From: Escherichia coli | GTDB lineage: Bacteria > Pseudomonadota > Gammaproteobacteria > Enterobacterales > Enterobacteriaceae | Length of the DNA: 64,000 nt | Strand: one strand, 5' to 3' | Assembly (NCBI RefSeq): GCF_001677475.2 | Contig: NZ_CP012498.1 | Shown here: one piece after another, positions 9,001-12,000 of the stretch | How positions within the stretch are numbered: position 1 is the first letter of the stretch | Layout of the letters: the number at the start of each line of letters is the position of its first letter | Position numbers: made by a program

Positions 9001-12000
9001 GGTTACCGTCACATATTTTCAGAGAGATCGTTATGGTCGTATTCTCGGGCAGGTTTATGCACCAGACGGAATGAATGTTAATCAGTTCATGGTCCGGGCC
9101 GGGGCTGCATGGGTATATGAGCAGTACAACACAGCTCCCGTGCTGCCTGTCCTTCAGAACGAAGCCAGACAACAAAAACGTGGGATCTGGCCAGATGCTG
9201 ATCCGGTTCCACCCTGGATATGGAGATACCGTAAATAAAGCGATGGCAATCTTATCATTCATCTGTTCTCAGCGGGAATCAAAATGGCGAAAACAAAACA
9301 GGAATGGCTGTATCAGTTACGGCGATGTTCATCAGTCAATATGCTGGAAAAAATTATTCATAAAAACAGAGACAGCTTATCGGGCAGTGAACGTGAATCA
9401 TTTAATTCAGCAGCAGACCACCGGTTAGCGGAATTAATCACCGGAAAGTTATATGACGGGATACCAAAAGAGATATGGAAATATGTAAGGTAATAATTCA
9501 GCATAGTTAATCACCAGGAGCAGATAAATAATGAAGCTGATTATTTTTATTCTTATTGTTCTGATTATTGCAGCGTTACTTATCCGGATTATCCTCAGAA
9601 GTGTAAATCAGCATTCTCCCTTGCTGATGCAATTGCATGCGGCAGGTATACGGACCGGTGATGCAGAGCGAATACTGTCCAGCGGTGAATACTGGCAACG
9701 TCAGAAGACGCTTCTGACAGAAAGGGAAGTCAGTTTTATGAAAGGACTGTTCAGAATTGTGGATATGAAGCGGTGGTATCTGTGTCCGCAGGTACGGGTT
9801 GCGGATATCGTCCAGCTGAACGGGAATATCCGCCACGATCCCGTCCGTGGTGGCAGTTATTCAGGATGGTGTCTCAGTGGCATGTTGATGTGGTTATCGT
9901 TGAGCGGCATTCGTTCAGTATTGTTGCAGCAGTAGAGCTGGATGATGCCAGCCATTTACGACCGGAACGCAGACGCCGGGATATTCTTCTGGAAGAGGTT
10001 CTGAGGCAGGCTGGTATTCAGTTGCTCAGAAGCCAAGATGCCAGAAAACTGCTGCAGATGACCAGAGAATGGCTGAATACAACAGGGGCAGCTCAGCAGT
10101 CACCGGAACATCGTAGCTGACGCCTTCGCGTTGCTCAGTTGTCCAACCCCGGAAACGGGAAAAAGCAAGTTTTCCCCGTCCCCGGCGTTTTCGGTATTAT
10201 TTAGTGAATGGCATTTGTCATATATACAAACATAATATCAACAAGATAAATTAACACGGAAAGCCCGATATTAATATTGGTTTCTTTTAACAGTGCTGAG
10301 GATTCATGAGAAATGGTCAGTGTTTTTCTGGTTTTGATTTGTTGTACCAGAAACCATGTATTAAGAATGGCGATAAGAAAATAGGCAAGGTAAATTGCGT
10401 TAACCATACTATCAACTCTCGTAAAATAAGTGAAAACAGAAACTCACAGCTATCTGACAGATAACGAACGATATCGTTATTATCTTTTTTAGGGGATTTT
10501 ACGTACAAACAGGTATGGAACAATTCGGGAAATGCTGATAATTATTAAGGTTATCAGATGATTAACCGACAGGCTGAAGTGTGGTACTATCGCTGCGGGT
10601 GTCTGAGCCTTTCTGGTTCAGGCAAGACGCAGGTACCAGAAATGCGAAGACCCCACTCGTTAATCCATTAACTCGTGAGGTCTGCATGAAGTTCCTAGCA
10701 GTTCTGATTGTAGCCTCTTCTTTGTAGAGAGGTCAAAGTTTTGTATGACGAAATATGCCCTTATCGGGTTGCTCGCCGTGTGCGCCACGGTGTTGTGTTT
10801 TTCACTGATATTCAGGGAACGGTTATGTGAACTGAATATTCACAGGGGAAATACAGTGGTGCAGGTAACTTTGGCCTACGAAGCACGGAAGTAAGCTGCC
10901 GGGCGGGGACGGAAGTCCCCGTTTTCCGGAAGTGTGAGGTATTTCAGGGGCAGACACCCGACATGCCAGAAACAGCCGGTCCCGCCCGGGGCCGGCATCC
11001 TGGTTAAGGCATTTCCAGCTTTTCAGTCATTTCATTATCAAAATCACATTAAACGGTCGTAATCAGACATGATTTGTGCGCCAACACAGATCATCGTCAC
11101 AACTTTCAAGTCGCTGATTTCAAAAAACTGTAGTATCCTCTACGAAACGATCCCTGTTTGAGAATTGAGGAGGCGAGATGTCGCAGACAGAAAATGCAGT
11201 GACCTCCTCATCAGGTACAAAGCGAGCATACCGAAAAGGTAATCCTCTGACGCTTGCAGAACGTCAGCAGGCATCTCTGGCAAGAAAACGTGCCACACAT
11301 AAAGAACTCAGAGTGTTCATTCCTGCTGCGTTAAAAGCGCAATTACAGGAGATGTGTGAAGCTGAAGGTGTTACTCAGGCTGAGATGATTGCTGAACTGA
11401 TAAAGCAGAAGAGTGCTTTCAGCTAACTAAAATGTAGCGACATCACATTCTTGCCTGTTTCTGGTGTGCGTGATAGATTGCTGATCGTTTAAGGAATTTT
11501 GTGGCTGGCCACGCCATAAGGTGGCAGGGAACTGGTTCTGATGTGGATGTACAGGAGCCAGAAAAGTGAAAACCCCGATAATCTCCTTCAAGTTTGGCGA
11601 CATGAAAGATTACCGGGGCCCCATAAAACCGCATAGCCAACAATCAAGCTATGTGGGGAGTATAGTTATATGCCCGGAAAAATTCAAGACCTCTTTCTGT
11701 GCTCACTCCTTCTGCGCATTGTAAGTGCTGGATGGTGTGGCTGAGCTTCAACAAACTTATTACCGCCAGGTAAAGAACCCGAATCCGGTGTTCACACCCC
11801 GTGAAGGAGCAGGAACGCTGCCGTTCTGCGAAAAACTGATGGAAAAGGCGGTGGGCTTCACCTCCCGTTTTGATTTCGCCATTCATGTGGCACATGCCCG
11901 CTCCCGGGGCCTGCGTCGACGCATGCCACCGGTACTGCGTCGCCGGGCTATTGATGCGTTGCTGCAGGGGCTGTGTTTCCACTATGACCCGCTGGCCAAC

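What the first reader, a model, noticed from the sequence alone, without database searches (positions are those of the whole stretch)
10600..10900. hok/srnB-like type I toxin locus not represented in the ORF track
A 49-codon ORF (10745-10894) encodes a hydrophobic Hok-family peptide, with a short overlapping upstream leader ORF (atgaagttcctagca..., about 10686-10727). An antisense Sok-like RNA would be expected on the opposite strand around the leader. This post-segregational killing module is missed by length-filtered ORF callers.
Basis: partly seen in the sequence, partly recalled or inferred. Interest (0 to 1): 0.35.

Follow-up and report, generated by a model that had tools for sequence, protein, structure and literature searches.

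The report
F-plasmid srnB/srnC toxin-antisense locus
This is the well-known srnB/srnC (hok/sok-family) plasmid-addiction module of F-like plasmids, carrying a toxin identical to that of the F plasmid, so it is ordinary apart from a rare early stop in its short leader reading frame.

Summary
The 49-codon ORF at 10745-10894 (+) is real. Its peptide is identical to the Hok/Gef protein annotated at the srnB position of plasmid F, and it passes Pfam HOK_GEF (37.3 bits, cutoff 22).

The surrounding approximately 410 nt is 95.4% identical to the F locus. It carries the expected hok-family RNA parts:
- a conserved extended -10 promoter;
- a leader matching Rfam RF01794 (81 bits);
- a leader ORF with its own Shine-Dalgarno (SD) sequence;
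- a conserved antisense promoter, TTGACC-18-TACAAT, on the minus strand;
- a 9-bp pairing between the 5' and 3' ends of the mRNA;
- sequestration of the toxin SD and ATG.

The locus sits between finO and the IncFII replicon (copB, CopA, repA) of a large F-like plasmid. About 2,900 PLSDB plasmids and 2,004 of 5,426 complete E. coli genomes carry it, and annotators routinely label it.

A CAG-to-TAG change ends it 17 nt upstream, and a 3-nt insertion lengthens the SD-ATG spacing. This allele was found in only one other record. Whether it weakens toxin translation is untested.

Verdict: already known, low interest.

The parts
10562..10590 (+). Putative toxin-mRNA promoter: weak -35 TTAACC (10562-10567), 17-nt spacer, extended -10 TGgTACTAT (10582-10590)
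   Evidence: Read directly from the sequence. The TGnTAYTAT motif is conserved in 15 of 17 aligned loci, while the sequence upstream of it differs between lineages. It falls below the threshold of the consensus scan. The transcription start is inferred, not shown.
10597..11000 (+). Predicted full-length srnB-type toxin mRNA (about 400 nt); both ends are approximate
   Evidence: Rfam RF01794 model position 1 aligns at 10597. The 410-nt stretch folds at -180.4 kcal/mol, z = -7.5. It is 95.4% identical to the F locus.
10597..10757 (+). hok-family mRNA leader (Rfam RF01794 'sok' hit; the model lies on the mRNA strand)
   Evidence: 81.3 bits against a gathering score of 59, E=1e-17, full model 1-157.
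10597..10605 (+). 5'-terminal element GGGUGUCUG, which pairs with the 3' fold-back element
   Evidence: Nine consecutive pairs with 10951-10959 in the minimum-free-energy structure. In 100 metagenomic loci where both 9-mers could be read, 64 are perfectly complementary. After removal of the 3' end, this 5' region refolds into a local hairpin.
10677..10680 (+). Shine-Dalgarno GAGG of the leader ORF, 5 nt before its ATG
   Evidence: Read from the sequence. It lies in a block (10660-10689) that is nearly invariant across 17 loci.
10686..10727 (+). Leader (mok / srnB'-like) ORF, MKFLAVLIVASSL plus TAG: 13 codons, ending 17 nt upstream of the toxin ATG
   Evidence: Relatives have either an in-frame 68-aa fusion (the F type) or a 19-codon ORF whose TGA overlaps the toxin ATG as ATGA.
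10707..10736 (-). Antisense (SrnC/Sok-like) promoter: -35 TTGACC (10736-10731), 18-nt spacer, -10 TACAAT (10712-10707)
   Evidence: The scan finds a 10/12 match. In 111 metagenomic loci the -10 is TACAAT in 109, the -35 is TTGACC in 90 and TTGACA in 19, and the spacer is 18 nt in 109 of 109 measured.
10637..10700 (-). Predicted SrnC-like antisense RNA (about 64 nt): a single-stranded 5' tail opposite leader codons 2-5, then a hairpin covering the leader ATG and SD, then a U-rich 3' end; both ends are inferred
   Evidence: Fold of -27.7 kcal/mol, z = -5.3, with none of 200 shuffles folding as well. The hairpin part is invariant and the 5'-tail part (10690-10699) is the variation hot spot of the locus. 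No transcript data are available.
10727..10732 (+). Toxin Shine-Dalgarno GAGAGG, 12 nt before the ATG here against 9 nt in relatives, because of a 3-nt insertion at 10741-10743
   Evidence: It is paired with 10873-10879 in the fold.
10745..10894 (+). srnB toxin gene, 49 aa, Hok/Gef family
   Evidence: The hydrophobic segment at residues 5-23 has a mean Kyte-Doolittle value of 2.66, and Cys is at residues 13, 18 and 28.
10856..10885 (+). Downstream complementary segment inside the toxin ORF, which pairs with the toxin SD and ATG region (ucb/dcb-like)
   Evidence: Pair table of the minimum-free-energy structure.
10951..10959 (+). 3' fold-back (fbi-like) element CAGACACCC
   Evidence: Pairs with 10597-10605. 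It is conserved in 15 of 17 loci and in 96 of 111 loci.
10975..10996 (+). GC-rich 3'-terminal hairpin, the likely transcript end
   Evidence: A 9-bp stem in the fold, conserved in the alignment. It has no strong T-run, so it was not called by the terminator scan.

Best explanation
This is an srnB/srnC locus: the hok/sok-family type I toxin-antitoxin (post-segregational killing) module that sits next to the IncFII/RepFIC replicon of F-like plasmids.

The mechanism below is taken from work on hok/sok, srnB and pnd. It is inferred for this copy, not shown.
1. A weak promoter makes a stable mRNA of about 400 nt. Its 5' end pairs with a 3' element, and the SD/ATG regions of both the leader and the toxin are buried, so the mRNA is inert.
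2. Slow 3' trimming removes the fold-back element, and the mRNA refolds.
3. A strong minus-strand promoter makes a short, unstable antisense RNA. Its 5' tail and hairpin are complementary to the leader ORF start. The antisense RNA blocks leader translation and marks the duplex for RNase III.
4. Toxin translation depends on ribosomes reading the leader, because they open the helix that hides the toxin SD and ATG.
5. In cells that lose the plasmid the antisense RNA decays first. The 49-aa membrane peptide is then made and kills the cell.

In this allele the leader stops early, 17 nt before the toxin ATG. I think coupling is probably retained by termination next to the toxin SD, possibly at reduced efficiency.
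For: Shown here:
- The toxin is identical to the F plasmid peptide and passes Pfam HOK_GEF.
- It is 39% identical to R1 Hok, with two Cys residues aligned (the Hok sequence was recalled from memory).
- The transcribed region is 95.4% identical to F.
- The leader matches Rfam RF01794 above its gathering score.
- Gene order is finO ... srnB-copB-CopA-repA, as in F and many IncF records.
- The antisense promoter is found by the scan and is nearly invariant in 111 loci.
- The antisense RNA fold has z = -5.3.
- The full-length mRNA fold has z = -7.5, with 9-bp pairing of the 5' and 3' ends and a buried toxin SD and ATG.
- Removing the 3' end refolds the 5' end into a local hairpin. The window, a type-B relative and F all behave the same way.
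- Holding 10710-10737 single-stranded, as a ribosome parked at the leader stop would, raises the unpaired probability of the toxin ATG from 0.34 to 0.98.

From the literature:
- srnB-srnC and pndA-pndB are hok/sok homologues regulated in the same way (PMC4147584, PMC3874152).
- SrnB lyses E. coli and SrnC delays the lysis (PMC12390103).
Against: There is no transcript, processing or killing data for this copy. The leader ORF differs from both common configurations. The TAG allele occurs in 0 of 72,556 PLSDB plasmids and in 1 of 20,395 RefSeq E. coli records. It also occurs in none of about 113 scorable metagenomic loci. The 3-nt insertion widens SD-ATG spacing from 9 to 12 nt, and the -10 of the mRNA promoter is TACTAT rather than the usual TATTAT. 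All three changes point towards lower toxin output. The peptide scores below the curated cutoffs of the two NCBIfam Hok models. Minimum-free-energy folds are predictions only.
Confidence: 0.85

Rival explanations
1. The locus is srnB/srnC by descent, but this allele is attenuated or silenced. The premature leader stop and the 3-nt insertion uncouple toxin translation from the leader. The toxin is then made poorly or not at all, and the module no longer stabilises the plasmid. It would be an early stage of decay, or a tolerated 'disarmed' copy.
For: The allele is derived and rare, being found only in NZ_AP042571.1. The closest backbone relative (L016) and two metagenomic loci with the same antisense-tail allele (L092, L130) have the normal ATGA-overlap leader. 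Both window-specific changes fall in the 20 nt that mediate coupling. The only other early-stop leaders seen (4 loci) all belong to a lineage that is clearly decayed, with a 44-aa truncated toxin where the sequence is complete and the mRNA 5' end missing.
Against: Everything else is intact: the toxin ORF (identical to F, with only synonymous differences), both promoters, both fold-back elements, and the leader SD and ATG. The allele is present on two plasmids with different flanks, so it has persisted. A ribosome terminating at 10725-10727 would cover and unwind the toxin SD, and the model predicts the ATG becomes free.
Confidence: 0.3
2. The small ORF and its leader are chance features of an intergenic region upstream of the replicon, and no toxin is encoded.
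For: Twenty ORFs of at least 20 aa are listed within about 900 nt, so short ORFs are common by chance.
Against: The Pfam E-value is 2e-9. The peptide is identical to an annotated protein of F. The peptide is the same in 70 of 113 metagenomic loci whose toxin sequence was read. The RNA family match has E=1e-17.
Confidence: 0.01

Closest known systems
srnB/srnC of plasmid F (type I TA next to RepFIC; Nielsen et al. 1991, cited in PMC4147584 and PMC3874152)
   Same: The toxin is identical, 49 of 49 residues. The transcribed region is 95.4% identical at the nucleotide level. The position immediately upstream of copB/repA2 is the same. The antisense promoter, the antisense hairpin, both fold-back elements and the 3' hairpin are the same.
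   Different: In F the leader ATG is in frame with the toxin, giving a 68-aa product (MKYLNTTDCSLFLAERSKF-MTKY...). Here a 1-nt difference puts the leader in another frame and a TAG ends it after 13 codons. The predicted 5' tail of the antisense RNA (10693-10703) differs at 5 substituted positions plus a 1-nt indel. There is a 3-nt insertion before the toxin ATG.
hok/sok (parB) of plasmid R1
   Same: The architecture is the same: Hok/Gef peptide, upstream leader ORF whose start is the antisense target, end-pairing of the mRNA, and the toxin SD sequestered (mechanism from PMC4147584 and PMC8309996).
   Different: The peptides share only 16 of 41 aligned residues (39%) (the Hok sequence was recalled from memory). 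From my own knowledge of the R1 literature, which I did not test here, mok overlaps most of hok, whereas the leader here stops before the toxin ATG. The plasmid location also differs.
pndA/pndB of R483 and flmA/flmB of F; chromosomal hokA-E loci of E. coli
   Same: All belong to the Hok/Gef family and, according to reviews, use the same regulatory logic (PMC4147584). Many chromosomal copies are inactivated (PMC8309996). That parallels the decayed lineage seen here (L014, L015).
   Different: These were not compared at the sequence level here. No second hok-type locus was detected in the 64-kb window by Rfam.
ldrD/rdlD of E. coli
   Same: A proposed leader-ORF-dependent type I toxin, analogous in organisation (PMC4147584).
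   Different: Not homologous. It is listed only as a functional analogue.

Membership tests
Hok/Gef toxin family (Pfam PF01848) | Profile match above the curated gathering score | tested here: met
   37.3 bits against a cutoff of 22, E=2.1e-9, covering profile positions 1-42 of 42. The NCBIfam HokA equivalog and Hok subfamily models are hit only below their cutoffs: 34 against 89 bits and 33 against 73 bits.
Hok/Gef toxin family (Pfam PF01848) | Peptide of about 50 aa with an N-terminal transmembrane helix, a polar C-terminal part and conserved cysteines | tested here: met
   The peptide is 49 aa. Residues 5-23 have a mean Kyte-Doolittle value of 2.66, and residues 24-49 have -0.56. Cys is at 13, 18 and 28. 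Cys13 and Cys28 align with Cys16 and Cys31 of R1 Hok (the Hok sequence was recalled from memory).
hok/sok-type type I TA locus | Cis-encoded antisense RNA gene on the opposite strand, overlapping the translation start of the leader ORF | tested here: met
   This was tested in silico only. The promoter TTGACC-18-TACAAT lies at 10736-10707 (-) and is conserved in at least 109 of 111 loci. The predicted RNA covers the leader ATG and SD and folds with z = -5.3. The transcript itself cannot be tested with these tools.
hok/sok-type type I TA locus | Upstream leader ORF (mok / srnB' / pndC) whose translation runs into or over the toxin start and is required for toxin translation | tested here: inconclusive
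   A leader ORF with its own SD is present at 10686-10727, but it ends 17 nt before the toxin ATG. Relatives overlap the toxin start, with 88 in-frame fusions and 22 ATGA overlaps among 113 scorable loci. A constrained fold suggests the terminating ribosome still frees the toxin ATG. Coupling itself is untested.
hok/sok-type type I TA locus | Fold-back inhibition: the mRNA 5' end pairs with a 3' element, making the full-length mRNA inert | tested here: met
   10597-10605 pairs with 10951-10959 over 9 bp in the minimum-free-energy structure. Both elements are conserved. This is a prediction only.
hok/sok-type type I TA locus | Toxin SD and start codon sequestered by pairing with a downstream segment | tested here: met
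   10729-10749 pairs with 10856-10879. The unpaired probability is 0.04 for the spacer and 0.34 for the ATG.
hok/sok-type type I TA locus | Activation by 3'-end processing, RNase III cleavage of the duplex, and killing of plasmid-free cells | not testable with these tools
   These are known for F srnB from the literature cited in PMC4147584. This allele needs experiments.
srnB/srnC of F-like plasmids specifically | Orthology with the F locus: near-identical sequence and the same position upstream of copB/repA2 of the FII/FIC replicon | tested here: met
   The transcribed region is 95.4% identical and the toxin is identical. copB (PF10723) lies at 11178-11426, CopA RNA at 11564-11652 (-) and repA at 11725-12594. 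F has the same order.

The most novel reading that the evidence does not exclude
The 10-12 nt just after the leader ATG (10690-10703) form the predicted single-stranded 5' tail of the antisense RNA. They are the only hypervariable patch in an otherwise almost invariant locus. The patch may define non-cross-reacting 'specificity alleles' of SrnC that let several F-like plasmids coexist without disarming each other. Indels in the patch shift the leader between three states: an in-frame fusion, an ATGA overlap, and the early stop seen here. That would mean only ribosome transit matters, not the leader peptide. On this reading the window's allele is a natural test of how short the leader can be while still licensing toxin translation.
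Probability: 0.3. Interest if true: 0.3.

Novelty: already known. Interest (0 to 1): 0.1.

Why it matters
The finding matters mainly for annotation. The window comes from a large F-like plasmid, and this is one of its standard maintenance modules, alongside vapBC and the replicons.

The one point of modest value is the rare leader allele. If it still kills, the leader ORF of hok-type systems need only deliver a ribosome to the toxin SD. If it does not, it is a snapshot of how such modules are disarmed. Either way it is a small refinement of a mechanism worked out in the 1990s.

Tried and rejected
- The primary EMBO J 1994 papers on SrnB mRNA processing (PMC395037, PMC395038) are not held. Mapped transcript ends could therefore not be compared, and all ends given are inferred.
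- The NCBIfam Hok models are hit only below their cutoffs. I did not use them as evidence of membership.
- The terminator scan found one hairpin with a T-run inside the toxin ORF (10774-10792) and nothing at the predicted RNA ends. I treat this hit as uninformative.
- The promoter scan count for the region (3 found, 1.2 +/- 1.1 expected) is not significant by itself. The case for the antisense promoter rests on its position and its conservation.
- Folding the 3'-truncated mRNA reproduces only the new 5' hairpin. It does not reproduce a full rearrangement of the leader, so no claim is made about the activated structure or a U-turn target loop.
- The Rfam alignment puts the terminal AUG of the model at 10755-10757 rather than at the true start, 10745. 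The 3' end of that alignment is unreliable, with low posterior probabilities.
- Covariation analysis was not attempted. The relatives are too similar outside the hot spot to be informative.
- I considered the out-of-frame TTG ORF at 10741-10830 (29 aa), created next to the insertion, and dismissed it because it has no family support.

Full report
**Observation.** The sequence contains the 49-codon ORF at 10745-10894 (+), exactly as reported. It encodes MTKYALIGLLAVCATVLCFSLIFRERLCELNIHRGNTVVQVTLAYEARK. The upstream ATG at 10686 opens a 13-codon frame, MKFLAVLIVASSL, closed by TAG at 10725-10727. The toxin ORF is not a chance feature:
- It matches Pfam HOK_GEF over the whole profile (E=2.1e-9, 37.3 bits, cutoff 22).
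- It is identical to the product of NC_002483.1 2926-3075, the Hok/Gef gene at the srnB position of plasmid F, RefSeq WP_001312851.1.
- Residues 5-23 form a strongly hydrophobic segment and the remainder is polar.

**Context.** Upstream lie vapBC (417-1045, -), traI, traX, finO, a SNase-family nuclease gene and a DUF2726 ORF. Directly downstream lie a copB/repA2-type regulator (11178-11426, PF10723), CopA RNA (11564-11652, -; 87 bits) and an IncFII RepA (11725-12594). The order is the same in F and in every IncF record I opened. The first 13.8 kb of the window is 98% identical to 215-225-kb plasmids of Escherichia sp. and E. coli.

**How common it is.** The 471-nt locus occurs in 2,909 of 72,556 PLSDB plasmids, in Escherichia, Klebsiella, Shigella and Salmonella. 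It also occurs in 2,004 of 5,426 complete E. coli genomes. Nearly everywhere it is annotated as 'Hok/Gef family protein' or 'type I toxin-antitoxin system Hok family toxin'. It is missed only by a length filter, not by standard annotation.

**RNA anatomy.** Rfam RF01794 ('sok') matches 10597-10757 on the plus strand at 81.3 bits (gathering score 59). Its consensus begins with the same sequence as the mRNA 5' end, so the model represents the toxin mRNA leader despite its name. The other parts are these:
- *mRNA promoter.* An extended -10 (TGgTACTAT, 10582-10590) sits 7 nt upstream of 10597. It is conserved across lineages, whereas the -35 region is not.
- *Full-length fold.* 10597-11006 folds at -180.4 kcal/mol (z = -7.5). 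Nine consecutive pairs join 10597-10605 to 10951-10959. The leader ATG is paired, and the toxin SD and ATG (10729-10749) pair with 10856-10879 inside the toxin ORF. This is the fold-back and sequestration pattern described for hok-family mRNAs. Both end elements are conserved.
- *After 3' trimming.* Deleting the 3' end makes the 5' end refold into a local hairpin. The window, a type-B relative and F behave alike.
- *Antisense promoter.* On the minus strand the scan finds TTGACC (10736-10731), an 18-nt spacer, and TACAAT (10712-10707). In 111 metagenomic loci the -10 is TACAAT in 109. The -35 is TTGACC in 90 and TTGACA in 19. The spacer is 18 nt in all 109 measured.
- *Antisense RNA.* A transcript from about 10700 to about 10637 would cover the leader ATG and SD. 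It folds into a long hairpin (-27.7 kcal/mol, z = -5.3). In layout it resembles Sok: a 5' tail, a hairpin and a U-rich end.

**Mechanism.** By homology with hok/sok, srnB/srnC and pndA/pndB (reviews PMC4147584, PMC3874152, PMC8309996), the module should work as follows. The stable mRNA is inert until it is trimmed at its 3' end. The unstable antisense RNA blocks the leader start and triggers RNase III cleavage. Toxin translation needs leader translation. Plasmid-free cells lose the antisense RNA first and are killed by the membrane peptide. SrnB toxicity and SrnC protection were recently re-confirmed experimentally (PMC12390103). For this copy the sequence features are shown, and the transcripts, processing and killing are inferred.

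**What is unusual.** I compared 16 annotated relatives and 120 metagenomic loci recovered with a 30-nt invariant pattern. The leader comes in two common forms.
- Type A (88 of 113 scorable loci, including F): the leader ATG is in frame with the toxin, giving a 68-aa product.
- Type B (22 of 113): a 1-nt difference gives a 19-codon ORF, MKY[LVI]ALLIVASSLQRGQSL, whose TGA overlaps the toxin ATG as ATGA.

The window is a type-B derivative. A CAG-to-TAG change at 10725 truncates the leader to 13 codons. A 3-nt insertion at 10741-10743 widens the SD-ATG spacing from 9 to 12 nt.

A 51-nt query centred on the TAG can only seed if the T is present. It finds nothing in PLSDB and one record among 20,395 RefSeq E. 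coli records. That record is NZ_AP042571.1, whose locus is 99.3% identical over the transcribed region but sits in a different flank. The closest backbone relative (L016) has the normal type-B leader. So do two metagenomic loci with the same antisense-tail sequence, L092 and L130.

The only other early-stop leaders belong to a lineage that is clearly decayed. It has a 44-aa toxin where the sequence is complete, and the mRNA 5' end is missing.

Against decay in the window, every other element is intact and toxin differences from relatives are synonymous. When 10710-10737 is held single-stranded, as under a terminating ribosome, the unpaired probability of the toxin ATG rises from 0.34 to 0.98. 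I therefore favour retained, possibly weakened, coupling (about 0.6-0.7) over silencing (about 0.3). Only experiments can decide.

**A side observation.** Within the transcribed region, variation is concentrated in 10690-10699 (mean column entropy 0.68, against 0.1 or less in the neighbouring bins). This stretch encodes the predicted 5' tail of the antisense RNA. Diversification of antisense specificity would explain this, but it was not tested.

**Verdict.** The element is the long-known srnB/srnC module, extremely common and routinely annotated. Novelty: already known. Interest: low, at 0.1. The rare truncated-leader allele is a minor curiosity.

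Noticed in passing
window 10690-10703, and the same columns in L001-L136: This is the only hypervariable patch of the locus (entropy 0.68 against 0.1 or less in the neighbouring bins). It coincides with the predicted 5' tail of the antisense RNA. Indels here switch the leader between an in-frame 68-aa fusion (88 loci) and a 19-codon ORF with an ATGA overlap (22 loci).
   Followed up: partly
L014, L015, L041, L060, L064, L116: These loci form a decayed lineage. The mRNA 5' end and promoter are replaced by unrelated sequence, and a 2-nt deletion truncates the toxin to 44 aa. It is still annotated as a 'Hok/Gef family protein' (WP_023144756.1). Four of the six (L041, L060, L064, L116) also have a 4-codon leader.
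   Followed up: partly
window 10597-10757 (+): The Rfam RF01794 'sok antitoxin' model matches the toxin-mRNA strand. Its consensus starts at the mRNA 5' end and ends at an AUG. A hit therefore marks the hok-type leader, not the strand of the antisense RNA.
   Followed up: partly
window 417-1045 (-): Two adjacent minus-strand ORFs (815-1045 and 417-815) lie just upstream of traI. They resemble the vapB/vapC type II toxin-antitoxin pair annotated at the same position in the closest relative, L016. They would be a second addiction module on the same plasmid. I identified them by position and by comparison with that annotation, and ran no family search.
   Followed up: no
window 3973-4049 (-) and 8431-8613 (-): Rfam hits to AS-traI (104.8 bits, gathering score 99) and AS-pc02, 'antisense to pHK01_099' (183.8 bits). 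These are antisense RNAs described on IncF plasmids.
   Followed up: no
window 48112-48254 (-): A full-length Rfam hit to isrN, an Hfq-binding sRNA (155.5 bits, gathering score 44), on what appears to be plasmid DNA.
   Followed up: no
window about 22196-44878 (+): A type VI secretion gene cluster is carried on this F-like plasmid next to the replicon. Pfam hits include VipB/TssC, TssF, a VgrG-like Phage_GPD, ImpA, VasE/TssK, IcmF-related, a ClpV-like AAA+ protein and VasL.
   Followed up: no
window 54049-55026 (-): A Rep3-family initiator (PF01051), which suggests a second replicon and so a multi-replicon plasmid.
   Followed up: no
window 10201-10407 (-): A 68-aa hydrophobic ORF with no Pfam match lies in the AT-rich stretch just upstream of the srnB promoter. 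Relatives have unrelated sequence at this position, which suggests a recombination breakpoint close to the -35 region.
   Followed up: no
window 10905-10926 (+): A GC hairpin (GGGGACggaaGTCCCC) lies just after the toxin stop codon. In the window alone it is followed by TTTT, whereas all 16 aligned relatives have CTTT (10922 T against C). This makes it slightly more terminator-like.
   Followed up: no
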